Source: a virus (Duplodnaviria; Heunggongvirae; Uroviricota; Caudoviricetes). Taken from it: DNA of 20,880 bases. The notes below the pieces were generated by a model, which was not told where the DNA came from, made no database searches, and worked only from the letters and a program-made list of their open reading frames with translations. Positions 1,381 to 18,713 of this stretch are shown piece by piece. The stretch lies in the IMG/VR virus record IMGVR_UViG_3300029080_000072. One strand, written 5' to 3'. The position numbers were made by a program, and so were the translations under genes. Positions within the stretch are counted from its first letter, which is position 1. Each line of letters opens with the position of its first letter.

Positions 1381-1900
1381 TCAGCAACCCCGGTATCAGT
1401 TCATCCAGCGCGGCTGCTTTGTTCATGGCTTTGATGATATCCCGTTTCAGGAAATCAACATGTCGGTTTTCCAGTTCCGGAAAACGCCGCTGCACCGACA
1501 GGGGGATCCCGTCGAGAATACTGGCAATTTCACCTGCAATCCGCGACAGCACGAAAGAACAGAATGCGGTTTCCACCACTTCAGCGGAGTCTCTGGCATT
1601 TTTCAGCTCCTGTGCGTCGGCCTGCGCACGCGTAAGTCGATGGCGTTCGTACTCAATAGTCCCTGGCTGGAGATCTGTCTCGCTGGCCTGTCGCAGTTCT
1701 TCAACCTCCCGGCGCAGCTTTTCGTTCTCAATTTCAGCATCCCTTTCGGTATACCATTTTATGACGGCGGCAGAGTCATAAAGCACCTCATTACCCTTCC
1801 CACCGCCTCGCAGAACGGGCATTCCCTGCTCCTGCCAGTTCTGAATGGTACGGATACTCGCACCGAAAATGTCAGCCAGCTGCTTTTTGTTGACTTCCAT
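1355..1900 (-). CDS. nu1: Terminase small subunit Nu1
   Basis: 181-aa product MEVNKKQLADIFGASIRTIQNWQEQGMPVLRGGGKGNEVLYDSAAVIKWY... is near-identical to lambda Nu1; its 3' end overlaps the A start as in lambda. Confidence 0.92.
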   Translation of the reverse strand: MEVNKKQLADIFGASIRTIQNWQEQGMPVLRGGGKGNEVLYDSAAVIKWYTERDAEIENEKLRREVEELRQASETDLQPGTIEYERHRLTRAQADAQELKNARDSAEVVETAFCSFVLSRIAGEIASILDGIPLSVQRRFPELENRHVDFLKRDIIKAMNKAAALDELIPGLLSEYIEQSG

Positions 1901-1904
1901 TGTT

Positions 1905-2130
1905 CATTCCACGGACAAAAACAGAGAAAGGAAACGACAGAGGCCAAAAAGCCCGTTTTCAGCACCTGTCGCTTCCTTTCTTTTCAGAGGGTATTTTAAA
2001 TAAAAACATTAAGTTATGACGAAGAAGAACGGAAACGCCTTAAACCGGAAAATTTTCATAAATAGCGAAAACCCGCGAGGTCGCCGCCCCGTAACCTGTC
2101 GGATCGCCGGAAAGGACCCGCAAAATGATA
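1905..2130 (-). other. cos site (cosB terminase-binding R elements, cosN, cosQ side)
   Basis: Minus strand reads ggggcggcgacctcgcgggttttcgctatttatgaaaattttccggtttaaggcgtttccgttcttcttcgtcataacttaatg...; the 12-nt cohesive-end sequence GGGCGGCGACCT is the complement of 2078-2089; repeated cgtttcc R-type elements lie between it and nu1. Confidence 0.8.
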
Positions 2131-2288
2131 ATAATTATCATCTACATGTCACAACGTGCATCTACGTCATCAAACCACGTCAAATAATCAATTATGACGC
2201 AGGTATCGTATTAATTGATCTGCATCAACTTAACGTAAAAACAACTTCAGACAATACAAATCAGCGACACTGAATACGGGGCAACCTC

Positions 2289-2483
2289 ATGTCAACTAAG
2301 AACAGAACCCGCAGAACAACAACCCGCAACATCCGCTTTCCTAACCAAATGATTGAACAAATTAACATCGCTCTTGAGCAAAAAGGGTCTGGGAATTTCT
2401 CAGCCTGGGTCATTGAAGCCTGCCGTCGGAGACTAACGTCAGAAAAGAGAGCATATACATCAATCCAAAGTGATGATGAATAA
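2289..2483 (+). CDS. Small conserved ORF near the lambda right end (hypothetical)
   Basis: 64-aa ORF MSTKNRTRRTTTRNIRFPNQMIEQINIALEQKGSGNFSAWVIEACRRRL...; the DNA resembles the lambda right-end region as remembered; function unknown. Confidence 0.4.
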   Translation: MSTKNRTRRTTTRNIRFPNQMIEQINIALEQKGSGNFSAWVIEACRRRLTSEKRAYTSIQSDDE

Positions 2484-2848
2484 ACATCCCGGTTTCTTCC
2501 ACCATCGCACCGGAAAAGCGACTATGAGGGTAACCCTGCGTCTGTCAGCACAGTAAAACCCGGTGTGCATCGTTTTTGATTATTCCCGCACACTCACGCA
2601 GAAGGAATTCCCCGTCGGGCTACGGTCATGGTTAATGCGGGAATACGGCGACGATACAGCGCAGCTAAAAGGGTAATGGACAGATAGAGCGGTTTATTTC
2701 ATTCCACAGGATTCTGAGTGCCCCCCTCCTCCAATAGGCTGAGCATCCACCTATATAGTTTTAGTTTTAATTTTCATCAATCCATTTAACTATCGTTTAA
2801 TTGTTGTCACATAGGATTCTGCCGTTTTTAACAATGCAGGATAATAAG

Positions 2849-3142
2849 ATGAAAAAAATGTTGTTTTCTGCCGCTCTGGCAATGCTTATTACAGGATGTG
2901 CTCAACAGACGTTTACTGTTGGAAACAAACCGACAGCAGTAACACCAAAGGAAACCATCACCCATCATTTCTTCGTTTCGGGAATTGGACAGGAGAAAAC
3001 TGTTGATGCAGCCAAAATTTGTGGCGGCGCAGAAAATGTTGTTAAAACAGAAACCCAGCAAACATTCGTAAATGGATTGCTCGGTTTTATTACTTTAGGC
3101 ATTTATACTCCGCTGGAAGCGCGGGTGTATTGCTCACAATAA
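2849..3142 (+). CDS. bor: Bor lipoprotein (serum-resistance lipoprotein)
   Basis: MKKMLFSAALAMLITGCAQQTFTV...GIYTPLEARVYCSQ has a lipobox (LITGC) and matches remembered lambda Bor; AGGA precedes the ATG at 2849; the tracked ORF start at 2801 is an upstream extension. Confidence 0.9.
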   Translation: MKKMLFSAALAMLITGCAQQTFTVGNKPTAVTPKETITHHFFVSGIGQEKTVDAAKICGGAENVVKTETQQTFVNGLLGFITLGIYTPLEARVYCSQ

Positions 3143-3152
3143 TTGCATGAGT

Positions 3153-3170
3153 TGCCCATCGACATGGGCA
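3153..3170. terminator. Hairpin between convergent bor and Rz (possible bidirectional terminator)
   Basis: tgcccat-cgac-atgggca inverted repeat; no strong T-tract on either side. Confidence 0.3.
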
Positions 3171-3173
3171 GCT

Positions 3174-3635
3174 CTATCTGCACTGCTCATTAATATACTT
3201 CTGGGTTCCTTCCAGTTGTTTTTGCATAGTGATCAGCCTCTCTCTGAGGGTGAAATAATCCCGTTCAGCGGTGTCTGCCAGTCGGGGGGAGGCTGCATTA
3301 TCCACGCCGGAGGCGGTGGTGGCTTCACGCACTGACTGACAGACTGCTTTGATGTGCAACCGACGACGACCAGCGGCAACACCATCACGCAGAGCATCAT
3401 TTTCAGCTTTCGCATTAGCTAACTCCTTCGTGTATTTTTCATCCAGTGCAGCAACATCACGCTGGCGCATCTGCATGTCAGTAATTGCCGCGTTCGCCAG
3501 CTTCAGTTCTCTGGCATTTTTGTCGCGCTGGGCTTTGTAGGTAATGGCGTTATCACGGTAATGATTAACAGCCCATGACAGGCAGACGATGATGCAGATA
3601 ACCAGAGCGGAGATAATCGCGGTTACTCTGTTCAT
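3174..3635 (-). CDS. Rz: Rz i-spanin
   Basis: [45 protein letters not shown]...QKYINEQCR is near-identical to lambda Rz; its ATG (3635-3633) overlaps the R stop. Confidence 0.9.
3233..3415 (-). CDS. Rz1: Rz1 o-spanin lipoprotein, embedded in Rz in another frame
   Basis: [60 protein letters not shown]: lipobox and proline-rich segment, matches lambda Rz1. Confidence 0.85.
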
Positions 3636-4129
3636 TGCTGACCCCACAAACAGATTTCACGCTCAATCTCACGACGAGTCATGAGACCTTTCCATTGCTT
3701 ACCGCCAGCATATGTCCAGCGACGTAGCTGATCACATGCGCCTTTGATATCGCCCTGGTTTATTTTGCGAAGAAGCGTCGATGTTCTGAAATTGCCAGCG
3801 CCCACGTTGTAAACGAACGAGTAAAGAGCGCCGCGCGTTGTTTCCGGTATATCAACTTTTATGTACGGGTTAATTTGTCTGGCGACCGTGGCAAGGTCTT
3901 TATTCAGGAGGGCTTTGCATTCTGCTTTGGTATACGTTTTACCGAGCATGATGTCTTTTCCTGTATGCCCGTGACATACAGTCCATACACCAACAATATC
4001 TTTGTATGGTATGTAGCTGACACCTTCCAGACCATCGTTACCACTTGGGCCAGTGATTAACACTGATGCTATAGCAATTGCTCCGCCACCAATAGCAGCA
4101 GCAACGGCTTTTCGTAATGATGGAGGCAT
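3632..4129 (-). CDS. R: SAR endolysin, phage-21/DLP12 RrrD type (T4-lysozyme-like)
   Basis: [59 protein letters not shown]... has an N-terminal Gly/Ala-rich signal-anchor-release segment followed by a lysozyme-like body; matches remembered R21/RrrD. Confidence 0.9.
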
Positions 4130-4344
4130 TATTCACCTCTCGCAGCCTTGCGCTTATCTTCTTTAATCTTGAAATAAAGGTTTGTCAGGTACGTCAGCAG
4201 GCCAAATACCAGGCTACCCAGCACACCTATTGCTGCCCACTGTGAGGGCGTGACTTTATCGAGCAGCTGTAAAAACCAGTAACCGGCACTACCTGCTGAG
4301 GTGCCATAGGCGACACCCGTTGTTAACTTATCCATGGATTTCAT
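4129..4344 (-). CDS. S: Class II holin (pinholin, S21/EssD type) with dual-start motif MKSM
   Basis: [71 protein letters not shown]; ATGs at 4344 and 4335 (Met1/Met4); GAGGTGGGG Shine-Dalgarno upstream; the tracked ORF start at 4389 is an extension. Confidence 0.85.
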
Positions 4345-4389
4345 AACCCCACCTCGCAGACAAAGCGGGTGTAAATTGAGGGAATACAA

Positions 4390-4932
4390 CGTATCGCAAA
4401 AAAGCAGAAACGTAACAGACTCGGAGTCAGTGAATAACTCAGGTATTGAGTTATCAGCTAATATCGAGACTCAAAAAATGGAAAAACCAGCTCGACGGCG
4501 GGTTTAAGCTGTGTGACGAAGTAACCACTCTTAACAGCATAACCAATTTTTTACGTACGTAAACCACTGAATGATATTTATGAGAATGCTACCGAGTGTT
4601 CAAAACACCACCACAAATACATAAGAAAACCTCAACAAATAACCAATAAATAATTTCAGACGTTATTTTTAGTTGATTTAAATTAAACTGCCGAATTATA
4701 GAACCTCCATAAATAACAACCATTAATATAAATTAGCTAATAGGTTTATTTTTGTTCAAATAAGAGCCATAAATAGGTTTCGATAGAAAAAGTTCAGATA
4801 AAAATAGAGATCTACTTCACAAATTAAATGAGAAACTAAAACTTACATCTTGAAATAATCACATTGATTAGATGAATATTTATCGCGCAGTGACATCATT
4901 TTTTAATAATAGTTCAAAAAAAAGGGCTCACG
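4390..4932 (+). promoter_or_regulatory. AT-rich ~540-bp upstream region of the porin gene (promoter/regulatory, exact elements not resolved)
   Basis: Very AT-rich non-coding stretch directly upstream of the porin ATG; AAGGG precedes the start. Confidence 0.4.
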
Positions 4933-6015
4933 ATGAAAAAATTAACAGTGGCAATTTCTGCTGTAGCTGCATCAGTACTGATGGCGATGTCTGCTCAGGC
5001 AGCTGAAATTTATAATAAAGACAGTAACAAGCTGGATCTATATGGGAAAGTTAATGCCAAGCACTACTTCTCCTCTAATGATGCAGATGATGGTGATACT
5101 ACTTATGCCCGTCTTGGCTTCAAAGGTGAAACCCAAATCAACGATCAACTGACTGGTTTCGGTCAGTGGGAATATGAATTCAAAGGCAACCGCGCTGAAT
5201 CTCAAGGCTCCTCCAAAGACAAAACCCGTCTTGCATTTGCAGGCCTGAAATTCGGGGACTACGGCTCAATCGATTACGGCCGTAACTACGGTGTAGCATA
5301 TGACATCGGTGCGTGGACTGACGTTCTGCCAGAATTCGGTGGCGATACCTGGACCCAAACAGATGTGTTCATGACTGGTCGCACCACTGGTGTTGCAACT
5401 TATCGTAACAACGACTTCTTTGGTCTGGTTGATGGTCTGAACTTTGCTGCTCAGTATCAGGGTAAAAATGACCGCACTGACGTAACTGAAGCTAATGGTG
5501 ATGGTTTCGGTTTCTCCACTACTTATGAGTATGAAGGATTCGGTGTAGGTGCAACCTATGCTAAATCTGACCGCACTAATAATCAGGTTATCTACGGTAA
5601 CAACAGCCTGAATGCATCTGGTCAAAATGCTGAAGTATGGGCAGCTGGTCTGAAATATGATGCGAACAACATCTATCTGGCTACCACCTATTCTGAAACC
5701 CAGAACATGACTGTTTTTGGTAATAACCATATTGCCAACAAAGCACAAAACTTCGAAGTAGTTGCACAATATCAGTTCGACTTCGGTCTGCGTCCGTCCG
5801 TTGCTTACCTGCAATCTAAAGGAAAAGACTTGGGTGCGTGGGGTGATCAGGACCTGGTTGAATATATTGATGTAGGTGCAACCTATTACTTCAACAAAAA
5901 TATGTCCACTTTTGTTGATTACAAAATCAACCTGATTGATAAGAGCGATTTCACGAAAGCATCTGGCGTTGCTACCGATGATATCGTTGCTGTAGGTATG
6001 GTTTACCAGTTCTAA
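4933..6015 (+). CDS. nmpC: OmpC/OmpF-family general porin (phage-borne NmpC/Lc-like), apparently intact
   Basis: 360 aa with signal peptide [23 protein letters not shown], typical porin beta-strand pattern and C-terminal ...VGMVYQF; matches remembered NmpC/Lc. Confidence 0.9.
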
Positions 6016-6133
6016 TTTGATTACTAAAAGATATGTTGCGGGAGGCTTTGCCTCCCCAACATATAAGTGGCTCCCTCAAGCCACTTCCTTTAGGAGCACA
6101 ACCTTGCTTCTAACTATATAAACCTTCTGTTAT

Positions 6134-6164
6134 ATATTACCCTTTATTTTTGGGGGCGTTGCAA
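6134..6164 (-). promoter_or_regulatory. Candidate late promoter downstream of Q (-35 TTGCAA, -10 TAATAT on minus strand)
   Basis: On the minus strand ttgcaa, a 19-nt spacer, then taatat, about 40-70 bp downstream of the Q stop; further hairpins at 6040-6057 and 6060-6081 could be the Q-modified terminator. Pattern-based only. Confidence 0.3.
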
Positions 6165-6176
6165 CGCCCCATTTTT
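6153..6176 (+). terminator. Rho-independent terminator downstream of porin
   Basis: ggggcgttgcaacgcccc hairpin followed by attttt. Confidence 0.6.
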
Positions 6177-6203
6177 AATAATTTTTAGTAAACAATTGGC
6201 ATA

Positions 6204-6587
6204 TTAATTAGAGTTATTAACAACGATATCCATCTCTAACCGGATATCTAATGCCATTAACATCCCTTCAATTATGCCCTCAGCCTTCTGTAACCTTTTC
6301 CCGATATAACCATCAGAGCAGCAATGCTTACCTGCCAGTGACATGAATGTCATACCGACTACATAATAATCTACTAATAAATCGTGCAAATCGCTGTTGT
6401 TCTTTTTCAGACGGGCCATGCACCCGCAAATAATCATCGCGTCATCGTCACAACATTGCGGGCGAGATTTTACTTTTGAAGTAATTAATCCCTTAAAACC
6501 GGCGGCAATGGACGACCAGGTCACATCTTCATGATTATTAGCCGCCCACGCTCCCCAACGCTCAAGAACCATCTGAATATCACGCAT
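6204..6587 (-). CDS. Q: Late antiterminator Q (phage-82/DLP12 QuuD type)
   Basis: [62 protein letters not shown]... matches remembered QuuD (127 aa); ATG at 6587 with upstream GGAG; the tracked 6602 start is TTG. Confidence 0.85.
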
Positions 6588-6809
6588 CAACTTACTCCAC
6601 AAAAATCAGACCAGAACGCCAATTACAAGCAAAAATCAACAAAACAGTATTAGTTGATTGTTATCTCTGACTTCATACTCCTGCTCCTGTCAGGGTTTTG
6701 GCGTAATTCTTCAGTATTCGGTAATCGGTCAAAACAGAACCGGGGAAACGATATAAGCGCAGATGCCCCCAGCGGTGGCGAAGAAGTTCTGCCATATAAA
6801 ACTCAAACA

Positions 6810-7172
6810 TCATTCATTCCCCATTTCGGTGATGGTCAGTTCCAGCCTCCCACCTTTGGTAACAGGCATCTTCACAACGCGGTAATCAACGACCTGAGCA
6901 TCATCCAGCCAGAAACCTGCTTTGGTGAGTGCGTCAAAAGCGGCTTTTTGCAGATTATCCAGGTCACGGCGACGGCGATCCGGCATGTGGCACTCAATAC
7001 GGATTTTCACTGGCATAGCCAGGCCGATATCCAGCATTGCGTTTTTAATGATTCGGGTGACGTTATCGCGGTATGCCTGCCCTTCTGCGCTGATGTGCGT
7101 GCGCCCGCGATTATGGCGGTAATAGCGATTATTGCTCGGAGGCCAGGGTAATGTGATGCTGTAGGTATTCAC
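6810..7172 (-). CDS. rusA: Holliday junction resolvase RusA
   Basis: [120 protein letters not shown] (120 aa). Confidence 0.92.
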
Positions 7173-7459
7173 GCCTTAATAACCCCCTCTTTCAGCCAGA
7201 TAACCTGTGTTCTCGCCATACCTTCCAGCGCGCATTCTTTTGCATATGCAGCATCGACAAAATGTGTGCGGCGGTCGATTTCGTCGTGGCAGGCAGAACA
7301 TGCAATGGTGGCAATCAGGTCTGGCGGTTTGATACCGGTACCGCACAATCCAGCCAGCCGGATATGTGCCAGTACAGACGTTTCAGAATTGCCATTACAT
7401 ACGCCAGGGATTCTTACCTGGCATTCCCGACCACGCGCTGCTTTTCTCAAATCAGCCAT
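7169..7459 (-). CDS. ybcO: YbcO-family protein (DUF1364, nin-region putative nuclease)
   Basis: [64 protein letters not shown]...; ATG at 7459 preceded by AGGAGG; matches remembered DLP12 YbcO. Confidence 0.85.
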
Positions 7460-7622
7460 GATTCCTCCTTGCTGCCAGTCGCAACCATTTTTTATCAACC
7501 AGGCTGGCGGTATATCCGAGCAGAGTTGGTATTTCGGATGGCTTCAGCTCAGGTTTACGCTTACGACGATTTGGTACTTTGTAGATGTGTCCGTTCATGA
7601 CACGAATAAGCGGTGTAGCCAT
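7452..7622 (-). CDS. ninE: NinE
   Basis: [56 protein letters not shown]; ATG at 7622 overlaps the ybcN stop. Confidence 0.85.
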   Translation of the reverse strand: MATPLIRVMNGHIYKVPNRRKRKPELKPSEIPTLLGYTASLVDKKWLRLAARRNHG

Positions 7623-8077
7623 TACGCCTCCTGCTTGTCGCGCAGCAGCTGGAACTCGCAGCGCTGCGGAATAGTCAGGTGGCAACCAATATTCATCGCC
7701 CAGGCTTCAACCTTACACAGGAAGACATACATCTCTCCGGTATCAAGATCGGAGGTATGGCGTAACGACTGGATAGTGGTGATATCACCGGTTACGACAT
7801 CAACCAGTTCTTTGGTTTCATAACCGAGATAAGTGTGTTTCAGAGCATCCTTCACCCACTCTGGCGTAGCGAAAGTCTTACCCCGGCTGATGAGGTATTC
7901 GCTGATTTCGGTGTACCACATGTGGCTTAAGCTATTTTGAGACAGGCTGCGCTTATCGCGCCATGGCTTCAGTACCATGCGGAAGCACTTGCCGTCCTCC
8001 AGATAAGGCTGGAGCTGCTGACCGATAGCGGTGAAGTTACCGCGATGAAGTTTGATGCCGTCTTGTGGGAGGTTCAC
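7622..8077 (-). CDS. ybcN: YbcN-family protein (DLP12 ybcN homolog)
   Basis: [62 protein letters not shown]... (151 aa) matches remembered YbcN. Confidence 0.85.
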
Positions 8078-8198
8078 GCTTCACCTCCGCAGAGGTCAAA
8101 CGCTGGATGCAAAAAATCGCAGGTGCATTTCTGCATCTGTGGCGGGAGAAGAGAGTTTAGATTGTATGTGCGCATAAACGTCCCCGTTTAGCGCAGAA

Positions 8199-8227
8199 GT
8201 CACCGGAGTTGTTCAGGCTCCGGTGAC
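8199..8227. other. Strong 10-bp-stem hairpin in the spacer between the NADAR gene and ybcN
   Basis: gtcaccggag ... ctccggtgac perfect inverted repeat with ~9-nt loop; no adjacent U-tract. Confidence 0.4.
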
Positions 8228-8337
8228 ATGATTATGGCTGGTTGATTATAGAAAATCAAAAACCTTTTATGGCAACAAAAAAACGCCGAGGGAGGTACGC
8301 CAGTTAATTTATGGAAGAAAATGCCCCAGATGGAACG

Positions 8338-8967
8338 CTAAAACAAGGATAAACTTTGCCCTGCTCCAGGCGTTGGCTTTACAAATGTTACATCTTTAAT
8401 TCTTTCGCCTAGGAGAAAAAATTTGTCCAAAGATAGCGATGGTATTGTTGCAAACCCATCAGCCCCCTTTTTCCTAGCAACCCCTCTCACGTCCATGAGA
8501 ATTCGCCCTAATACGTTCATACCATAATAGTTACCTTCTGGGTCTTTACTGGCACCCCAGAATTGGTCCTTCTCTGAGTGTTCCACGATGAAATGGTCGC
8601 CTGTACTGTCTAACAGCGCAAAGAACGTATCCCAGTTCTGGCATAATTTTACGCATACACACCACTTCATAATCGAAACTCGATTCTTATCCCATCCTGC
8701 GCGAGTTTTGGATTCAAACGATCTTGCGGTCTGCTTGGCTTCATAGGGGTTTCCTTGAGTAATGATGGCCTTTTGTATATCCGGATAGTCTGGATATCGG
8801 CATGCTTGGTAAAGGATTTCACTTGATTGAATAGGCAACCCATTGATTAACAATGGATATCCTTTAGCCATGTTGGAAAGCCCCCCCCATTTTTCGGTGG
8901 TTTTCCTGAAGGAAACTGTGTTCTGTAGCGGATATAATCTATAGCTCATACCACTCATTATACCCAT
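8338..8967 (-). CDS. NADAR (YbiA/DUF1768-like) domain protein, predicted N-glycosidic/ADP-ribosyl hydrolase
   Basis: Motif pattern GGLSNM ... IQSSEILYQACRY ... IVEHSEKDQFWGA ... G.N.LGRILMDVR parallels E. coli YbiA (FSNF ... TSEHYFQAQKF ... VEHTENDAYWGDG ... GKNRLGYLLMELR); start ambiguous among ATGs at 8967, 8958, 8949, all overlapping the upstream gene. Confidence 0.7.
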   Translation of the reverse strand: MGIMSGMSYRLYPLQNTVSFRKTTEKWGGLSNMAKGYPLLINGLPIQSSEILYQACRYPDYPDIQKAIITQGNPYEAKQTARSFESKTRAGWDKNRVSIMKWCVCVKLCQNWDTFFALLDSTGDHFIVEHSEKDQFWGASKDPEGNYYGMNVLGRILMDVRGVARKKGADGFATIPSLSLDKFFLLGERIKDVTFVKPTPGAGQSLSLF

Positions 8968-9970
8968 TCCGCTTCATTAGTGGATACCAGCAGTCCAATG
9001 CGGGAGCACCTGTTGGTTCATAATCTCCCCACCAAAAAGCCAGCGGCACATTATTCGGGCAATTTCGATAAGTAAATGTTGTTCCCCCAAAACCCAAACC
9101 GTCAAAAGTAGAAAAACCTAGAGGTTTGAGCACCTCACTAGGGGTTTTCCTGTGCAGCAAGATATTAAAGCCGACTTTAGTAAGGATAGATTCGAAACGA
9201 TCCCTTGAGGCTTCATTTCTAAAACTATCAGAAGAGGCATATCCATCTCTGAATACGCCTTTGTAAAGCTCACACTCCTCGAATTTCTCGGGAGTATCTA
9301 CACTATATTTCCTTGGCCAGAAAACACCTGATTGAGCAGAACGACTTTTTCGGTTTTCAACCTCACGCATACCACCATTCTTCACGTGTACAAAAATGTT
9401 TCTATCCTTAAAAATATATTCTAATCGTCTTTTTATATTATAGTCAGATAACGTATGAGATGAAAAAAAATATACATTGAATTTAATATCTCTTAAATTA
9501 AATTTTAAAACAAAATTACTTATCGATTTGATGGCCTTTTCTCCTGAAAACGACACATCATCAATATATACAAATGTATCAAATTTATTTACTTCATCTT
9601 GAGTTGATGATTCAGTAACGATGTTAAATTTGATCCCTACTGTTTCATAAAGAGATTTAAGCAATTCCTTCTGACTAGAACCTTTTTTTTGAATATCTAA
9701 AAAACCTGCATATCTGAAGAATTTCGCGTTCTTTTCACTTCTTGCAATGGCTTTTATTTTTCGTTGATATTGACTTTCGGATAGGTAACCTGCATTAAGT
9801 AGATAAAGCGTTTCATCTAAGATAAATCGTCTATCCTCCACTGCAAATTGCTTAATCCATTTGCTGACATGTTCAGAGTTCATACCTTCAGCCGGAGGAT
9901 ATTTATAATCGCTCAACTTTTCAGCAATTTTATTGATTACTTTTTCACCAGATAAAATATTCGAGGACAT
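8939..9970 (-). CDS. Unassigned 343-aa protein (AT-rich cargo gene); weak PRTase-like DD motif; function unknown
   Basis: Uninterrupted ORF with AGGA 8 nt upstream of the ATG; FVYIDDVSFSGEKA resembles a type-I phosphoribosyltransferase PRPP motif; Trp/Gly-rich C-terminus; no family I recognise. Confidence 0.7.
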   Translation of the reverse strand: MSSNILSGEKVINKIAEKLSDYKYPPAEGMNSEHVSKWIKQFAVEDRRFILDETLYLLNAGYLSESQYQRKIKAIARSEKNAKFFRYAGFLDIQKKGSSQKELLKSLYETVGIKFNIVTESSTQDEVNKFDTFVYIDDVSFSGEKAIKSISNFVLKFNLRDIKFNVYFFSSHTLSDYNIKRRLEYIFKDRNIFVHVKNGGMREVENRKSRSAQSGVFWPRKYSVDTPEKFEECELYKGVFRDGYASSDSFRNEASRDRFESILTKVGFNILLHRKTPSEVLKPLGFSTFDGLGFGGTTFTYRNCPNNVPLAFWWGDYEPTGAPALDCWYPLMKRNGYNEWYEL

Positions 9971-10181
9971 AAAAATTCCTTTTCACAACACAGAATCTAA
10001 AAAATAAGAATACTTTTATTTATTTCAAGTATAGACCGTATATTCAACTACTTTTTTTTATAGTAGGGAGATACCGATCACAATTTTTAGATATCTAATG
10101 TGATGGTTTAATAACCAGCAGTCTTACGTGTTAATTCACGTAAAAAAACTCATCAAACCTTCCTCTTTTCAGTTAATTCTT
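9971..10181 (-). promoter_or_regulatory. AT-rich upstream region of the cargo cassette with a TACGTG-N6-CACGTA palindrome (10125-10142)
   Basis: ~210 bp, very AT-rich, between the methyltransferase stop and the cassette start; the palindrome is followed by an A7 run. Confidence 0.35.
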
Positions 10182-10766
10182 TTAAGAATAAACATCAGTA
10201 ACTCGGGCCGGGCTTAATGCTACGGTTGGCGAATCACACTTGTTTCCCCATACGTCGAAACCGTGGGAGGATTTACGCGCAAAGAGCTCAATACGTGGAA
10301 GATTACCCAGCAACCGAACCAGCATTTCACGCACGCAGTCTGGTTTACGTGAGTGCTCATGTCGCGGCGAGGTGTAGTGCTGGATGATCGAGGCGTCCTG
10401 CTGTGGTGCCCGCTTACCCTTTACCGCGAAAAGACAATCTTCACGGTTCGCCCGGATCAGGTGTCCCATTCCCATCGCCGATTTGTCAGTTTGCTTCGGG
10501 TAGGTTTTATCCCAAGTGAAACCTTTCATTGTGATCAGGCGAAATCCCCAGGCATCGACGACTTTCATCGCCTCGAACGTTTGAGTTGGCAACCACCACA
10601 TCGCCAGCTGGCAGCTTTCTGCAACCCGCTCCCTTACTGGCAGCCAGCAGATATCCTGCACCGTCATAACCAAGTATTTATGCCCGGTGCCACGCTTACC
10701 AGAATTGCATTTATCCTCGTACGTCCAGGGCGGATCCGCTTAGATCAACGTGTATTTCTTGTTCAT
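10182..10766 (-). pseudogene. Dam-like N6-adenine DNA methyltransferase (DPPW motif) interrupted by an in-frame TAA at codon 9
   Basis: Minus strand from ATG 10766 reads MNKKYTLI-TAA-ADPPWTYEDKCNSGKRGTGHKYLVMTVQDICWLP...; the stop (10742-10740) sits where intact homologs, as I remember them, have Tyr in LIYADPPW. Confidence 0.75.
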
Positions 10767-13307: not shown

Positions 13308-13411
13308 AACAACCTCCGTGGTTAATTTGAATCAAGATTAAAACTATGGTTGTTTTTAGTCAACAACCATTTTCGTTTGATGGAATAAAACCTTGGTTGT
13401 ACATTTGGACT
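13308..13411. promoter_or_regulatory. OR region: divergent promoters and operator palindrome ATGGTTGTT-N7-AACAACCAT (13346-13370)
   Basis: Perfect 9-bp inverted arms; further GGTTGT half-site at ~13395; the same AACAAC half-site recurs at OL. Confidence 0.6.
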
Positions 13412-14101
13412 ATGAAAACAACACTCTCAGAAAGACTTAAAGAAGCCAGATTAGCGCGAGGCCTTACACAAAAGGCGCTTGGGGATTTGGTCGGGGTTAG
13501 CCAAGCTGCTATTCAGAAAATCGAAACAGGGAAAGCTAACCAAACAACTAAAATCGTGGAGATCGCGAACGCTTTGGGTGTGCGCGCAGAATGGTTATCT
13601 TCTGGCGTTGGAAATATGTCAGACAGTACAGTGCAACCAATACAATCAACTGTCAGCCATTCCAAATACTTTAAGATTGACGTTCTTGATATAGAAGTGA
13701 GTGCCGGGCCGGGAGTCATCAACCGTGAATTTGTAGAAGTTCTACGCTCGGTTGAGTACTCGTTTGACGATGCTCGTCACATGTTCGATGGCAGGAAGGC
13801 GGAAAATATCCGCATCATTAACGTGCGTGGTGACAGCATGTCAGGAACGATCGAACCAGGTGATCTGCTGTTCGTTGATATCACGGTTAAATCTTTCGAC
13901 GGTGATGGTATCTATGCGTTTCTGTACGACGACACAGCCCATGTAAAGCGCCTGCAAATGATGAAAGATAAGCTACTGGTTATCTCTGATAACAAGAGCT
14001 ACTCACCGTGGGACCCGATCGAGAAAGACGAGATGAACCGGGTGTTCATTTTCGGGAAGGTTATTGGCAGTATGCCGCAGACGTATAGGAAACACGGATA
14101 A
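13412..14101 (+). CDS. cI: CI repressor (XRE-type HTH + LexA/S24-like autocleavage domain)
   Basis: MKTTLSERLKEARLARGLTQKALGDLVGVSQAAIQKIETGK... then a C-terminal S24-like region; the tracked ORF start at 13346 lies inside the operator, so it could alternatively be a leaderless start. Confidence 0.9.
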   Translation: MKTTLSERLKEARLARGLTQKALGDLVGVSQAAIQKIETGKANQTTKIVEIANALGVRAEWLSSGVGNMSDSTVQPIQSTVSHSKYFKIDVLDIEVSAGPGVINREFVEVLRSVEYSFDDARHMFDGRKAENIRIINVRGDSMSGTIEPGDLLFVDITVKSFDGDGIYAFLYDDTAHVKRLQMMKDKLLVISDNKSYSPWDPIEKDEMNRVFIFGKVIGSMPQTYRKHG

Positions 14102-14180: not shown

Positions 14181-14450
14181 ATGAGTGATAAAAAACTTAT
14201 AAAAAAATCAAATAACTGTGTAGATGCATATGCTGATGCATTTGGATATTCATCTTTTGGGGAAGATGACGATCGCTTAGGCTCCATATCTTTCTTTCAG
14301 CATGTTACAGAATGGGGCGCTGATGGTAGTAATGACACTGAAAACGTAAAGTACAACATTGCAACAATTCGCATGACGGAAGATTTAATGCTTAAACTCG
14401 CTGACTTTATTCGCGATCAGCATGATAGAGCTAAAACCAATAAGTCATAA
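14181..14450 (+). CDS. Hypothetical acidic 89-aa protein, first gene of cI-linked cassette
   Basis: ORF with GGGAAAGG Shine-Dalgarno; AT-rich; no family recognised. Confidence 0.55.
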   Translation: MSDKKLIKKSNNCVDAYADAFGYSSFGEDDDRLGSISFFQHVTEWGADGSNDTENVKYNIATIRMTEDLMLKLADFIRDQHDRAKTNKS

Positions 14451-14458
14451 TATTAACA

Positions 14459-14899
14459 ATGAAACACGGTTATTACGAAGCTCCAAACCTAACTGAAAAG
14501 CTTGAACAAGCGGCAAGATCATCATCTTTGCACACTGCAGCATTTTCTCAATCAGCTGGTATGTCTGGCGGTAATGTACCTATGCTACAATCAAGTGGTA
14601 GCGGTGGCTCTGGGAGTAATAATGTGCTTGAATCGAAAGTTGCAAAGCTTGAGTCTGATGTGTCCTATATCCGACGTGACGTTGATGAGCTTAAGACAGA
14701 TGTCAAATCTATCGACAGAAACATGATCGCTGTTCTGGAGCGACTCGATTCAATAAAAGATTCACTAGCCAAAAAACCCTCCATCGATGCTGTCGATAGA
14801 AAGATTTCAGACGCAAAGCTTGCGGTATTGCTTGGTGTTCCAGCAATCATCGCTGCAGGAACAGGTCTTTATAAGCTATCAATGTACTTTTTTCTTTAG
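14459..14899 (+). CDS. Coiled-coil protein with C-terminal transmembrane anchor (possibly XhlA-like), second gene of cI-linked cassette
   Basis: Heptad-like segment LESKVAKLESDVSYIRRDVDELKTDVKSIDRNMIAVLERLDSIKDSL and hydrophobic tail LAVLLGVPAIIAAGTGLYKLSMYFFL; starts 8 nt after the previous stop. Confidence 0.55.
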   Translation: MKHGYYEAPNLTEKLEQAARSSSLHTAAFSQSAGMSGGNVPMLQSSGSGGSGSNNVLESKVAKLESDVSYIRRDVDELKTDVKSIDRNMIAVLERLDSIKDSLAKKPSIDAVDRKISDAKLAVLLGVPAIIAAGTGLYKLSMYFFL

Positions 14900-17497: not shown

Positions 17498-17652
17498 CGC
17501 ATCCTCACGATAATATCCGGGTAGGCGCGATCACTTTCGTCTACTCCATTACAAAGCGAGGCTGGGTATTTCCCGGCCTTTCTGTTATCAGAAATCCACT
17601 GAAAGCACAGCGGCTGGCTGAGAAGATAAATAATAAACAGGAGGATATATGA
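17494..17652 (+). CDS. Unannotated 52-aa micro-ORF translationally coupled between exo and the DGQHR gene
   Basis: ATG overlaps the exo stop (ATGA at 17494-17497) and its TGA overlaps the DGQHR ATG (ATGA at 17649-17652); product [52 protein letters not shown]; below the ORF-track size cutoff. Confidence 0.4.
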
Positions 17653-18713
17653 GTCAGGTTGGTAATCATTCATTCGAATTTCCGGCATCGCAAGGTGTAC
17701 AGGGTGGTACTGTTACACTCTTCCTTACCATACCAGGAAGATCGCTGGCTCGTTTCCTCGCTTCAGATAATTACGGCCATACACTGGAACGCTCTCAGCG
17801 AGAAATTAATCCAAATCGAGTACGAAAATTTTTAAATTATCTCACTAACGCAGACTCAAGAAATGAGTCTTTTATCATTCCCCCTCTCGTAGGTAACTGT
17901 GATTCGAATATAGAATTTGTACCGTTTGGCAACACAAATGTTGGTATAGCCAGAATTCCCCTCGACGCCGAAATAAAACTTTTTGATGGCCAACATCGTG
18001 CAGCTGGCATTGAGATATTTTGCCGAAGTTCCCCATCAACGCTCATGGTTCCCATGATGCTTACAATGAATCTGCCGCTAAAAACCCGGCAGCAGTTCTT
18101 TTCGGACATAAATAACAACGTTTCTAAGCCATCAGCGACCATCAATATGGCGTATAACGGCCGGGATGATATTGCTCAGGGAATGATATCCTTCCTGACC
18201 CAACATACTGTATTTGCCGATATAACCGATTTTGAACACAACGTAGTGCCATTAAAAAGTAATATGTGGGTGAGTTTCAAGGCACTCACTGATGCAACGT
18301 CAAAGTTTGCTAGGAACGGCAATCAACAACTTGAAATGGGATATATAGAATCTGTCTGGGAGGCATGGATTACACTAACTCAGATTGACTCAATCCGACA
18401 TGGTGTACACCACGCTACGTACAAGCGCGATTATATTCAGTTCCATGGAGTAATGATTAACGCTTTCGGTTTTGCGGTTCAACAGATGATGGTTAATCAT
18501 TCCATCGCAGAAATAACTTCTATGATCGAAAAACTCTGTGCAACTACCAGCTCTGCAGAAAGAGAGGATTTTTTTCTGATGGATAACTGGGCGGGGATCT
18601 GCACGAAAGCCAGCCAGGAAAAACTATCGGTTATTGCCAATGTGGCAGCGCAGAAAGCAGCAGCAAACAGACTGATACAAGCTTTTACCAAAGGAAGTCT
18701 GGAAACAACTTAA
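17649..18713 (+). CDS. DGQHR-domain (DndB-like, ParB/Srx-fold) protein
   Basis: Contains the literal motif FDGQHRAAGIE preceded by a region resembling what I recall of DndB-like proteins; AGGAGG 5 nt upstream of the ATG. Confidence 0.7.
   Translation: MSQVGNHSFEFPASQGVQGGTVTLFLTIPGRSLARFLASDNYGHTLERSQREINPNRVRKFLNYLTNADSRNESFIIPPLVGNCDSNIEFVPFGNTNVGIARIPLDAEIKLFDGQHRAAGIEIFCRSSPSTLMVPMMLTMNLPLKTRQQFFSDINNNVSKPSATINMAYNGRDDIAQGMISFLTQHTVFADITDFEHNVVPLKSNMWVSFKALTDATSKFARNGNQQLEMGYIESVWEAWITLTQIDSIRHGVHHATYKRDYIQFHGVMINAFGFAVQQMMVNHSIAEITSMIEKLCATTSSAEREDFFLMDNWAGICTKASQEKLSVIANVAAQKAAANRLIQAFTKGSLETT

What the first reader, a model, noticed from the sequence alone, without database searches (positions are those of the whole stretch)
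8338..8967. Prophage-encoded NADAR (YbiA-like) hydrolase
Three conserved blocks align by eye with E. coli YbiA: GGLSNM vs FSNF, SSEILYQACRY vs TSEHYFQAQKF, and IVEHSEKDQFWGA...GNYYGMNVLGRILMDVR vs LVEHTENDAYWGDG...GKNRLGYLLMELR. NADAR domains cleave N-glycosidic bonds in riboflavin intermediates and reverse guanine ADP-ribosylation on DNA. A NADAR on a prophage in an accessory slot is unlikely to be riboflavin housekeeping. There is a ~40-aa C-terminal extension beyond the domain.
Basis: partly seen in the sequence, partly recalled or inferred. Interest (0 to 1): 0.65.

Follow-up and report, generated by a model that had tools for sequence, protein, structure and literature searches.

The report
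NADAR partner of DS-32 phage defence

Summary
The ORF at 8338..8967 (-) encodes a NADAR protein (Pfam PF08719, E=5.7e-23).

Both proteins are 100% identical to DS-32A and DS-32B, a two-gene system cloned and shown to protect E. coli from phages (DefensePredictor, Science 2026). Both pass NCBIfam's DS32 equivalog cut-offs. The element is therefore already known, but its mechanism is not.

In 115 of 117 informative loci from many phyla and prophages, a NADAR of this subfamily follows a PRTase-CE gene, usually within ±40 nt. Catalytic residues of both enzymes are invariant.

About a third of the NADARs are fused to DNA-recognising modules: type I HsdS inside hsdM-PRTase-NADAR::hsdS-hsdR operons, the Hma methylase, or HhH motifs. 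Some PRTases carry HRDC, LRR or Sel1 domains.

My best reading (confidence about 0.5) is a DarT1-NADAR-like toxin/antidote pair that uses PRPP instead of NAD+, probably acting on nucleic-acid bases.

The parts
8338..8949 (-). DS-32B: NADAR-family protein, 203 aa from M7 plus stop codon. The open frame extends upstream to an ATG at 8967, giving 209 aa.
   Evidence: ORF list. Pfam PF08719 E=5.7e-23. NCBIfam NF053876 DS32_2_antiphage, 257.4 bits against a cut-off of 240. 100% identical to WP_032260665.1, the protein tested as DS-32B.
8485..8910 (-). NADAR catalytic core (Pfam match). It includes the invariant E44 (8818-8820) and E123 (8581-8583), plus R51, K72, R83, W86, D128 and W131 (203-aa numbering).
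   Evidence: E44 and E123 correspond to E43 and E125 of the P. nicotianae NADAR, which contact the distal ribose (PMC11543638).
8380..8484 (-). Subfamily-specific ordered C-terminal extension (residues 156-190): a short helix followed by beta strands. It contains the nearly invariant F177.
   Evidence: AF2 pLDDT is at least 95 up to about residue 190. The extension is covered by the NCBIfam and family HMMs in all 115 loci, including the fusion proteins. It is absent from YbiA.
8341..8379 (-). Variable, largely disordered C-terminal tail (KPTPGAGQSLSLF).
   Evidence: pLDDT below 50 for residues 195-203. Not conserved in alignment A4.
8939..9970 (-). DS-32A: PRTase-CE phosphoribosyltransferase-like protein, 343 aa, the predicted effector.
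   Evidence: Pfam PF24390 E=5.9e-39. NCBIfam NF053875 DS32_1_antiphage, 312.7 bits against a cut-off of 250. PADLOC retron PRTase_III-A 7.5e-11. 100% identical to WP_000097610.1.
9536..9574 (-). PRPP-binding loop of a type I PRTase, FVYIDDVSFSGEK. D137 and D138 are invariant in the family.
   Evidence: Compare the Retron-Eco11 motif VVILTDTIGSGNQ (PMC12746101).
9044..9067 (-). RNCPNNVP. It contains the PNNxP signature shared with retron type III PRTase-like effectors and is invariant in the family, followed by WWG and WYPLxxR.
   Evidence: The motif Gx14PNNxP is described in PMC12746101.
8939..8949 (-). 11-nt overlap between the end of DS-32A and the start of DS-32B, implying translational coupling.
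   Evidence: In 110 of 113 related loci the NADAR N-terminus lies within ±40 nt of the PRTase stop, median +4.
8261..10181 (-). The whole inserted cargo cassette: an AT-rich leader (9971-10181), the two genes, and a short trailer with a weak terminator-like hairpin (8323-8336).
   Evidence: GC is 37.5%, against 48-52% in the flanks. Homology to other lambdoid phages stops at about 8260. The same slot holds other cargo in other E. coli prophages. The promoter and terminator are only consensus-level matches.

Best explanation
SHOWN: the ORF is DS-32B, the NADAR half of the two-gene prophage-borne anti-phage system DS-32. Its partner DS-32A, a PRTase-CE phosphoribosyltransferase-like protein, is encoded immediately upstream and overlaps it.

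INFERRED mechanism: DS-32A is the effector, or toxin. It uses PRPP to attach 5-phosphoribose through an N-glycosidic bond to a nucleobase amine, most likely in DNA or another nucleic acid and possibly in free nucleotides. This consumes PRPP and blocks replication.

DS-32B is the cognate antidote. It is a catalytically active YbiA-type N-glycosidase that hydrolyses that bond, releasing ribose-5-phosphate and restoring the base. It probably also binds the PRTase through its subfamily-specific C-terminal extension. This keeps uninfected cells unharmed.

Infection tips the balance towards the PRTase. In the experimental data this applies mainly to a T5-like phage, less to RB69 (a T-even phage per my own knowledge, not a tool result), and only weakly to T5 itself.

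This is the logic of DarT1-NADAR and YarT-YbiA, with PRPP replacing NAD+. In many relatives the same module is wired into type I R-M and Hma systems through fusion of the NADAR to HsdS or HmaB.

My confidence in the identity is about 0.98. My confidence in the mechanism is about 0.5.
For: Identity:
- Both proteins are 100% identical to the cloned DS-32 proteins.
- Both NCBIfam equivalogs are above cut-off.
- DS-32 gave a -log10 EOP of 3.7 on Bas26, 1.6 on RB69 and 0.6-0.9 on T5 and SECphi18 (Table S7).

Obligate pair:
- A NADAR follows the PRTase in 76 of 78 informative genome loci and in 39 of 39 viral contigs.
- The spacing is within ±40 nt in 110 of 113 loci.
- One single-chain PRTase-CE::NADAR protein exists (P0336).

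Both enzymes look active:
- NADAR E44, R51, K72, R83, W86, E123, D128 and W131 are invariant or nearly invariant in 183 sequences.
- PRTase D137 and D138 in the PRPP loop are invariant.

Chemistry fits:
- NADARs hydrolyse ribosyl N-glycosides of exocyclic amines, namely ADPr-guanine, ADPr-cytidine and the phosphoribosylamino-pyrimidines of riboflavin synthesis (PMC11543638; PMC12945103 title).
- Like YbiA, it has an Arg (invariant R83) where the P. nicotianae enzyme has D86, the only contact to the adenosine ribose. This suits a 5-phosphoribosyl substrate rather than an ADP-ribosyl one.

Precedent: in both characterised two-gene NADAR modules, DarT1-NADAR and YarT-YbiA, the NADAR is the antitoxin.

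PRTase as effector:
- It is homologous to retron type III-A effectors. Retron-Eco11's effector depletes PRPP on activation.
- ShosT is a PRTase toxin.
- Relatives of DS-32A carry N-terminal LRR, Sel1 or FGE-sulfatase domains, which I read as sensor-type, and still have a NADAR gene downstream.

Nucleic-acid direction:
- NADAR is fused to full-length HsdS, to the HmaB DNA methylase, or to HhH motifs.
- A PRTase is fused to HRDC.
- The NADAR family is basic, with median pI 8.9.
Against: - No biochemistry exists for either protein. The published work reports only plaque assays and structure predictions.
- Toxicity of DS-32A alone is untested. The Retron-Eco11 PRTase expressed alone was not toxic, although it was processed.
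- Intact PRTase genes without an adjacent intact NADAR exist: L038, L040, the first paralogue in L008, and L126 where the NADAR is frameshifted.
- Stable fusion of the NADAR to HsdS, to HmaB or to the PRTase itself rules out a labile-antitoxin trigger as the general mechanism.
- The DNA-binding fusions are in relatives, not in the E. coli proteins.
- PRPP depletion with small-molecule acceptors would also explain a PRTase effector.
- The PRTase-CE profile finds no solved PRTase by sequence, so its substrate cannot be inferred by homology.
Confidence: 0.5

Rival explanations
1. Co-effector, or futile-cycle, model. The two enzymes act in sequence rather than in opposition. The PRTase couples PRPP to an acceptor base, and the NADAR hydrolyses the product and regenerates the acceptor. 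The net reaction is PRPP + H2O -> ribose-5-P + PPi. On infection the pair drains PRPP and starves phage nucleotide synthesis, so both genes are effectors.
For: Both active sites are invariant. The genes are tightly coupled, and one protein fuses the two enzymes in a single chain. A related retron PRTase causes PRPP depletion. ShosT couples PRTase activity with a second hydrolytic activity. This model has no difficulty with the stable fusions.
Against: There is no precedent for a NADAR acting as an effector; characterised NADAR partners are antitoxins. The model does not explain why the NADAR is repeatedly fused to DNA-recognition modules (HsdS, HmaB, HhH) or the PRTase to HRDC. Retron and ShosT PRTases work without a NADAR. 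A constitutively active cycle would be toxic, so a regulator would still be needed.
Confidence: 0.17
2. Guard, or tether, model. The NADAR mainly holds the PRTase inactive by binding and serves as the sensing or docking element. In the fused relatives it docks the PRTase onto type I R-M or Hma complexes, so that phage anti-restriction proteins unleash the effector, as Stp does for PrrC held by EcoprrI. Its catalytic site acts on a phage- or infection-derived ribosyl compound rather than on the PRTase product.
For: The operons are hsdM-PRTase-NADAR::hsdS-hsdR, with 4-nt overlaps and hsdR present in at least 13 loci. The HmaA-PRTase-NADAR::HmaB arrangement is similar. The conserved C-terminal extension is specific to this subfamily. 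The resemblance to prrC embedded in a type I R-M locus rests on my own knowledge.
Against: Invariance of the whole catalytic constellation argues that hydrolysis matters. The E. coli DS-32 has no R-M partner. Nothing identifies an alternative substrate.
Confidence: 0.15
3. The reading implied by the first reader's proposed tests. It is an orphan NADAR carried by the prophage as a counter-defence or self-protection enzyme that removes ADP-ribose from DNA modified by DarT1-type toxins.
For: All NADAR subtypes tested so far remove ADPr from guanine in vitro (PMC11125620). Phages do carry orphan NADARs, such as AdfN, against DarTG1 (PMC11825919). More distant orphan relatives (38-43% identity) of DS-32B without a PRTase occur on ICE-like and phage-like elements.
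Confidence: 0.04
4. Housekeeping YbiA-like damage-control N-glycosidase for riboflavin intermediates that happens to lie in a prophage.
For: YbiA is the closest solved relative. The TIGR02464 score is only slightly below its cut-off.
Against: The score is below the equivalog cut-off (70.4 against 73.7). The gene is present in only 19 of 5426 complete E. coli genomes, in a low-GC cargo cassette in a variable prophage slot, always with a PRTase-CE partner, and with an experimentally shown defence phenotype.
Confidence: 0.01

Closest known systems
DS-32 (DS-32A PRTase + DS-32B NADAR), DefensePredictor, DeWeirdt et al., bioRxiv 2025 / Science 2026
   Same: It is the same thing. Both proteins are 100% identical to WP_000097610.1 and WP_032260665.1, the pair cloned as 'NADR' and validated against phages. 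Both NCBIfam DS32 equivalogs are above cut-off.
   Different: Nothing differs at the sequence level. The publication gives no mechanism and compares the NADAR only with DarG. This analysis adds the family-wide linkage, the YbiA-type active site and the R-M, Hma and DNA-binding fusions.
DarT1-NADAR (DarTG1) toxin-antitoxin defence system
   Same: A two-gene operon with the toxin gene first and a NADAR second. The NADAR is an N-glycosidase that reverses a ribosyl adduct on an exocyclic base amine. It has an anti-phage function (PMC11543638).
YarT-YbiA toxin-antitoxin pair of myxobacteria (Cihlova et al. 2024)
   Same: A YbiA-branch NADAR acts as the antitoxin of an adjacent transferase toxin.
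   Different: That toxin is an ART. Its gene order is YbiA first. That NADAR has no fold extension.
E. coli YbiA (PDB 2b3w), riboflavin-intermediate N-glycosidase
   Different: YbiA is a chromosomal core gene of 160 aa with no C-terminal extension and no PRTase-CE partner. DS-32B falls below the TIGR02464 cut-off.
Retron type III-A PRTase-like effectors (e.g. Retron-Eco11)
   Same: DS-32A is homologous across nearly its full length (PADLOC 7.5e-11) and shares the PRPP loop and the PNNxP signature. The two systems also have a similar phage range, T-even and T5-like phages.
   Different: There is no reverse transcriptase, ncRNA or winged-helix domain here. The neutralising partner is a NADAR instead of RT-msDNA.
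ShosTA (PRTase toxin + DprA-like antitoxin)
   Same: A PRTase-family toxin in a two-gene anti-phage TA system that perturbs nucleotide metabolism.
   Different: No sequence-level match between the PRTase-CE profile and any solved structure. The antitoxin is a DNA-binding protein, not an N-glycosidase.
PrrC anticodon nuclease embedded in the EcoprrI type I R-M locus (from my own knowledge)
   Same: This applies to the fused relatives only. A latent toxic effector gene is inserted inside a complete type I R-M operon (hsdM-PRTase-NADAR::hsdS-hsdR).
   Different: The effector chemistry differs, and the link here is a covalent fusion to HsdS. The E. coli DS-32 cassette is free-standing.

Membership tests
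NADAR superfamily (Pfam PF08719) | Profile match above the gathering score | tested here: met
   82.4 bits against a cut-off of 35.1, E=5.7e-23, covering 2-159 of 163 profile positions
NADAR superfamily (Pfam PF08719) | NADAR fold (helical core flanked by small beta sheets) | tested here: met
NADAR superfamily (Pfam PF08719) | Catalytic and ribose-binding residues (PnNADAR E43, K50, W89, R93, E125, D130, W133) | tested here: met
   The equivalents are E44, R51, W86, R90, E123, D128 and W131. All are invariant or at least 88% conserved in 183 family members.
YbiA branch of NADAR (as opposed to BC4488/DarG1 and phage branches) | Glu at the PnNADAR E125 position (Asp in BC4488, His in phage NADARs) | tested here: met
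   E123 is invariant. The family profile hits YbiA at 5.6e-28 and finds no DarG1 at E<=0.1.
Riboflavin-intermediate N-glycosidase (NCBIfam TIGR02464 equivalog domain) | Score above the curated cut-off | tested here: not met
   70.4 bits against a cut-off of 73.7. There is no rib gene context.
DS-32 anti-phage system | NADAR component matches the NF053876 equivalog | tested here: met
   257.4 bits against a cut-off of 240. 100% identical to WP_032260665.1.
DS-32 anti-phage system | Adjacent PRTase-like component matches the NF053875 equivalog | tested here: met
   312.7 bits against a cut-off of 250. The gene is directly upstream with an 11-nt overlap and is 100% identical to WP_000097610.1.
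DS-32 anti-phage system | Protects cells from phage | not testable with these tools
   Reported by the authors: -log10 EOP of 3.7 on Bas26 and 1.6 on RB69 (Table S7). The system is listed as validated.
DarTG1 (DarT1-NADAR) | Adjacent DarT ADP-ribosyltransferase toxin | tested here: not met
   The neighbours are a PRTase-CE gene and ybcN. No ART is annotated in the prophage.
DarTG1 (DarT1-NADAR) | BC4488-type NADAR (catalytic Asp, N-terminal DNA-groove extension) | tested here: not met
Phage orphan anti-DarT NADAR (AdfN-like) | Stand-alone NADAR gene with no cognate toxin partner | tested here: not met
   It is paired with a PRTase-CE here and in 115 of 117 related loci.
Retron type III-A | PRTase-like effector of the retron clade | tested here: met
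   PADLOC PRTase_III-A at 7.5e-11 over residues 10-334, and the PNNxP motif is present.
Retron type III-A | Reverse transcriptase and ncRNA next to the effector | tested here: not met
   No RT in the annotation or among the neighbouring ORFs. No Rfam family is found in the window.
Toxin-antitoxin system (type IV-like, enzymatic antidote) | First gene is toxic alone; second gene neutralises it | not testable with these tools
   This is inferred only from the operon structure and from the DarT1-NADAR and YarT-YbiA precedents.

The most novel reading that the evidence does not exclude
DS-32 and its roughly 1,200 relatives (50%-identity cluster representatives) are a writer/eraser pair for a so-far undescribed nucleic-acid modification. 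The modification would be PRPP-dependent N-phosphoribosylation of base amines in DNA, written by PRTase-CE and erased by a YbiA-type NADAR. In about a third of cases this module has been built into type I R-M and Hma complexes through NADAR::HsdS and NADAR::HmaB fusions. That would couple methylation-based self-recognition to a phosphoribosylating effector. By extension, retron type III PRTase effectors would act the same way.
Probability: 0.25. Interest if true: 0.85.

Novelty: already known. Interest (0 to 1): 0.45.

Why it matters
As a finding it is ordinary. The exact gene pair is a published, experimentally validated defence system, and current NCBI annotation already names it.

What remains open is the mechanism of a whole class of PRTase-like immune effectors: DS-32, type III retrons and the sensor-fused PRTase-CE proteins.

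The near-obligate NADAR partner constrains what the PRTase makes, namely an N-glycosidic 5-phosphoribosyl adduct on an amine. The repeated fusions to HsdS, HmaB, HhH and HRDC point to DNA as the place where it acts. Together these turn a vague 'nucleotide metabolism' effector into a directly testable hypothesis.

The R-M-embedded variants also suggest a new kind of back-up arm for restriction systems. I found no literature on them in the library searched.

Tried and rejected
1. AlphaFold2 on the single sequence gave pLDDT 40 and was unusable. I repeated it with a 65-sequence alignment.
2. The PRTase-CE family profile against PDB sequences gave no hit at E<=1.
3. I considered that in the HsdS-fused loci the PRTase replaces HsdR as the 'restriction' arm. 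I rejected this because hsdR lies directly downstream in at least 13 loci.
4. I checked for a hidden retron. No RT is annotated, Rfam finds nothing and there are no tRNAs.
5. The promoter scan of the AT-rich leader was not above chance (6 sites found, 6.1 expected). The terminator-like sites are weak. I make no regulatory claim.
6. Literature searches for 'PRTase-CE' and for NADAR together with HsdS or type I restriction found nothing. This shows absence from the searchable library only.
7. The cassette is absent from deposited phage genomes; only the flank matched. It is present in IMG/VR prophage-derived contigs.
8. The adjacency of the MT-A70 pseudogene to the cassette looked suggestive given the methylase fusions elsewhere. 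It is not conserved in other enterobacterial loci, so I treat it as coincidence.
9. pI values are compatible with nucleic-acid binding but carry little weight.

Full report
1. THE OBSERVATION.

The minus-strand ORF at 8338..8967 exists. It is 209 aa from the first ATG. Annotation and the published construct use M7 (window 8949), giving 203 aa.

It matches Pfam NADAR at E=5.7e-23.

The C-terminal extension is real. Residues about 156-190 are ordered and conserved in the whole subfamily, and the last 9-13 residues are disordered.

The ORF directly upstream, 8939..9970 (-), encodes a 343-aa protein that overlaps the NADAR start by 11 nt. It is a PRTase-CE protein (PF24390, E=5.9e-39). It is homologous to the PRTase-like effectors of type III-A retrons (PADLOC 7.5e-11).

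NCBIfam has equivalog models for exactly this pair. NF053875 DS32_1_antiphage scores 312.7 bits against a cut-off of 250. NF053876 DS32_2_antiphage scores 257.4 bits against a cut-off of 240. The newest RefSeq annotations already call the genes 'phosphoribosyltransferase-like anti-phage protein' and 'NADAR family anti-phage protein'.

DS-32 comes from the DefensePredictor study (bioRxiv 10.1101/2025.01.08.631726; Science 2026, PMC13092281). Its supplementary tables list the cloned pair as WP_000097610.1 + WP_032260665.1, construct 'NADR', validated = TRUE. Both window proteins are 100% identical to those sequences.

The recorded plaque data show:
- a -log10 EOP of 3.7 on Bas26, a T5-like Epseptimavirus with unmodified DNA (PMC10644984);
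- 1.6 on RB69;
- 0.6-0.9 with small plaques on T5 and SECphi18.

The authors give no mechanism. They note only that DS-32B resembles DarG while DS-32A does not resemble DarT, and they suggest 'TA partner swapping'.

3. GENOMIC SETTING.

The window is a lambdoid prophage integrated next to icd. On the minus strand the gene order is: replication O/P, MT-A70 methylase pseudogene, DS-32A, DS-32B, ybcN, ninE, ybcO, rusA, Q.

The cassette 8261..10181 has 37.5% GC, against 48-52% in the flanks. Only 19 of 5426 complete E. coli genomes carry it. No deposited phage genome does, but IMG/VR prophage-derived contigs do.

In other E. coli prophages the same slot upstream of ybcN holds ybcM/ybcL, small unknown genes, or a NACHT protein. 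It is therefore a variable cargo slot.

4. THE PAIR IS AN ANCIENT, NEAR-OBLIGATE MODULE.

I scanned one genome per species with an alignment of DS-32A relatives. This returned 80 loci from Proteobacteria, Planctomycetota, Chloroflexota, Acidobacteriota, Myxococcota, Spirochaetia, Actinobacteria and other groups.

An HMM of the DS-32B subfamily found a NADAR ORF immediately downstream on the same strand in 76 of them. Two of the four exceptions are cut by contig ends. All 39 viral-contig loci also have it, one with a frameshift.

In 110 of 113 loci the conserved NADAR N-terminus starts within ±40 nt of the PRTase stop, with a median of +4. Independent look-ups starting from NADAR homologues at 43-49% identity (Vibrio and a metagenome) show the same pair.

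The PRTase-CE clade has about 1,213 representatives at 50% identity in 1.84 billion proteins.

5. BOTH ENZYMES LOOK ACTIVE.

In 183 NADAR sequences E44, K72, E123, D128 and W131 are invariant or absent from only one sequence. R51, R83 and W86 are at least 98% conserved, and R90 is 88% conserved. E44 and E123 are the counterparts of P. nicotianae E43 and E125, which hold the distal ribose. The E125 position is Glu in the YbiA family, Asp in DarT1-linked NADARs and His in phage NADARs (PMC11543638). DS-32B is therefore of the YbiA type, as the family profile also shows: YbiA at 5.6e-28, PnNADAR at 1e-10, and no DarG1 hit.

Where P. nicotianae has D86, its only contact to the adenosine ribose, DS-32B and YbiA both have Arg, and R83 is invariant in the family. 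I infer that the pocket suits a terminal 5-phosphate. That matches YbiA's known phosphoribosyl-amine substrates and is what a PRTase product would offer.

In DS-32A the PRPP loop FVYIDDVSFSGEK has invariant D137 and D138. The C-terminal RNCPNNxP...WWG...WYPLxxR block is invariant and contains the PNNxP signature described for retron PRTase-like effectors.

6. DOMAIN FUSIONS POINT TO NUCLEIC ACID AND TO AN EFFECTOR ROLE FOR THE PRTASE.

Roughly a third of the NADARs (37 of 115 by length) are N-terminal domains of larger proteins.

- The proteins of about 700 aa carry a full-length type I specificity subunit (Pfam Methylase_S; PADLOC Specificity_I over residues 251-672). They sit in operons of the form hsdM-PRTase-NADAR::hsdS-hsdR. 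HsdM is upstream in 17 loci, often with 4-nt overlaps, and hsdR is directly downstream in at least 13.
- The proteins of about 1,250 aa are NADAR::HmaB (a DUF1156 DNA adenine methylase), with the HmaA SNF2 helicase upstream.
- One NADAR carries ComEA-like HhH motifs, with a PRTase C-terminus just upstream.

On the PRTase side there are fusions to HRDC, LRR, Sel1 and FGE-sulfatase domains. There is also one single-chain PRTase-CE::NADAR protein. The LRR- and HRDC-fused PRTases still have a NADAR gene immediately downstream.

A neighbour-joining tree without support values puts the fused forms together, with Hma fusions interleaved among HsdS fusions. The enterobacterial free-standing clade is separate.

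I found no paper mentioning these architectures or 'PRTase-CE'.

7. MECHANISM.

The identity, the pairing and the conservation are shown. Everything in this section is inferred.

The best-supported model is a toxin/antidote pair with DarT1-NADAR logic. The PRTase-CE effector transfers 5-phosphoribose from PRPP to a base amine, probably in DNA. The YbiA-type NADAR hydrolyses that N-glycosidic bond. Four lines of support:
- The only characterised two-gene NADAR modules, DarT1-NADAR and YarT-YbiA, have the NADAR as antitoxin.
- Related PRTases are toxins or effectors. Retron-Eco11 depletes PRPP, and ShosT is a PRTase toxin.
- Domains I read as sensor-type are fused to the PRTase.
- DNA-binding modules are fused to either partner.

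Points against:
- There is no biochemistry for either protein.
- A few intact PRTase genes lack an intact NADAR (L038, L040, L008 paralogue 1, L126).
- The Retron-Eco11 PRTase alone was not toxic.
- The stable fusions exclude a labile-antitoxin trigger as the general rule.

The rivals are:
- a PRPP-draining futile cycle with both enzymes acting as effectors;
- a guard or tether role resembling PrrC in the EcoprrI locus;
- riboflavin housekeeping.

The last two are contradicted by context, by active-site type and by the defence phenotype.

8. COMPARISON AND VERDICT.

The element is DS-32 itself, so it is already known. It works like DarTG1 or YarT-YbiA, but it is not a member of either. It has no ART partner, it carries Glu rather than Asp, and it has a different fold extension.

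Its PRTase is a member of the retron-type PRTase-like clade, but the locus is not a retron: there is no RT, no ncRNA and no Rfam hit.

Interest is moderate. The value added here is the family-wide linkage, the YbiA-type pocket and the R-M, Hma and DNA-binding fusions. Together they make the unknown chemistry of PRTase immune effectors testable.

Noticed in passing
window 10182-10766 (-): An MT-A70 family DNA adenine methyltransferase pseudogene with an internal stop lies directly upstream of the DS-32 cassette. Enterobacter mori (L008) has a PRTase paralogue without a NADAR, then an MT-A70 fragment, a 141-aa ORF, a second PRTase and a NADAR. This looks like two cassettes in tandem in the same slot.
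   Followed up: partly
window 17649-18713 (+): A DndB-like / DGQHR-domain protein (PF14072, E=3e-46) lies in the early-left region between exo and xis. It is a candidate defence or anti-defence cargo gene.
   Followed up: partly
window 14181-14450 and 14459-14899 (+): Two small ORFs with no significant Pfam family match lie immediately downstream of the cI-like S24 repressor (13346-14101), in the position that rexAB occupies in lambda. A related prophage (L001) carries a SIR2-family gene at that place instead.
   Followed up: no
window 4933-6015 (+) and 2849-3142 (+): The prophage carries an OmpC-like porin gene and the iss (increased serum survival) lipoprotein gene around the lysis cassette. 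The terminase and portal region is degraded in the matching genome (L002), so the prophage is probably defective.
   Followed up: no
L022, L027, L035, L044, L048, L051, L055, L056, L065-L067, L069, L086 (about 1600-9000 in each): These are complete type I R-M operons with the PRTase-CE gene inserted between hsdM and hsdS, and with the NADAR fused to the N-terminus of a full-length HsdS. hsdR follows directly. Some also carry a GmrSD gene or an HD-domain (YfbR-like) gene upstream.
   Followed up: partly
L030, L032, L045, L063, L072, L077, L078: The Hma (helicase-methylase-ATPase) system has the same insertion: HmaA, PRTase-CE, then NADAR::HmaB (about 1,250 aa). L078 also has a PDC-S19 candidate gene between HmaA and the PRTase.
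   Followed up: partly
L005 4001-4597; L131 5001-5597; L132 4001-4645: Orphan NADARs of the DS-32B subfamily (38-43% identity) have no PRTase partner. Two sit in an array (Prok-E2, Prok-JAB, ThiF, DUF2958, DUF6197) that looks to me like an integrative conjugative element, and one sits next to a topoisomerase IV-like gene. They could be counter-defence 'orphan antidotes' against DS-32-like systems, by analogy with AdfN and DarT1.
   Followed up: partly
L126 4017-4633: In one IMG/VR contig the NADAR is split by a frameshift in an A-run while the PRTase is intact. This is either a sequencing error or a natural case of a PRTase tolerated without its NADAR.
   Followed up: partly
P0336; P0257; P0349; P0283; P0332: PRTase-CE architectures seen: a single-chain PRTase-CE::NADAR, PRTase-CE::HRDC, LRR::PRTase-CE, Sel1::PRTase-CE and FGE-sulfatase::PRTase-CE. 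Only one example of the single-chain fusion was seen, so it could be a gene-calling artefact.
   Followed up: partly
window 8197-8225 (-): A strong hairpin, GTCACCGGAG...CTCCGGTGAC, lies in the conserved intergenic stretch upstream of ybcN. It is shared at 91-94% identity with phage 82 and other lambdoid phages, where the record annotates a regulator-binding site and promoter elements.
   Followed up: no
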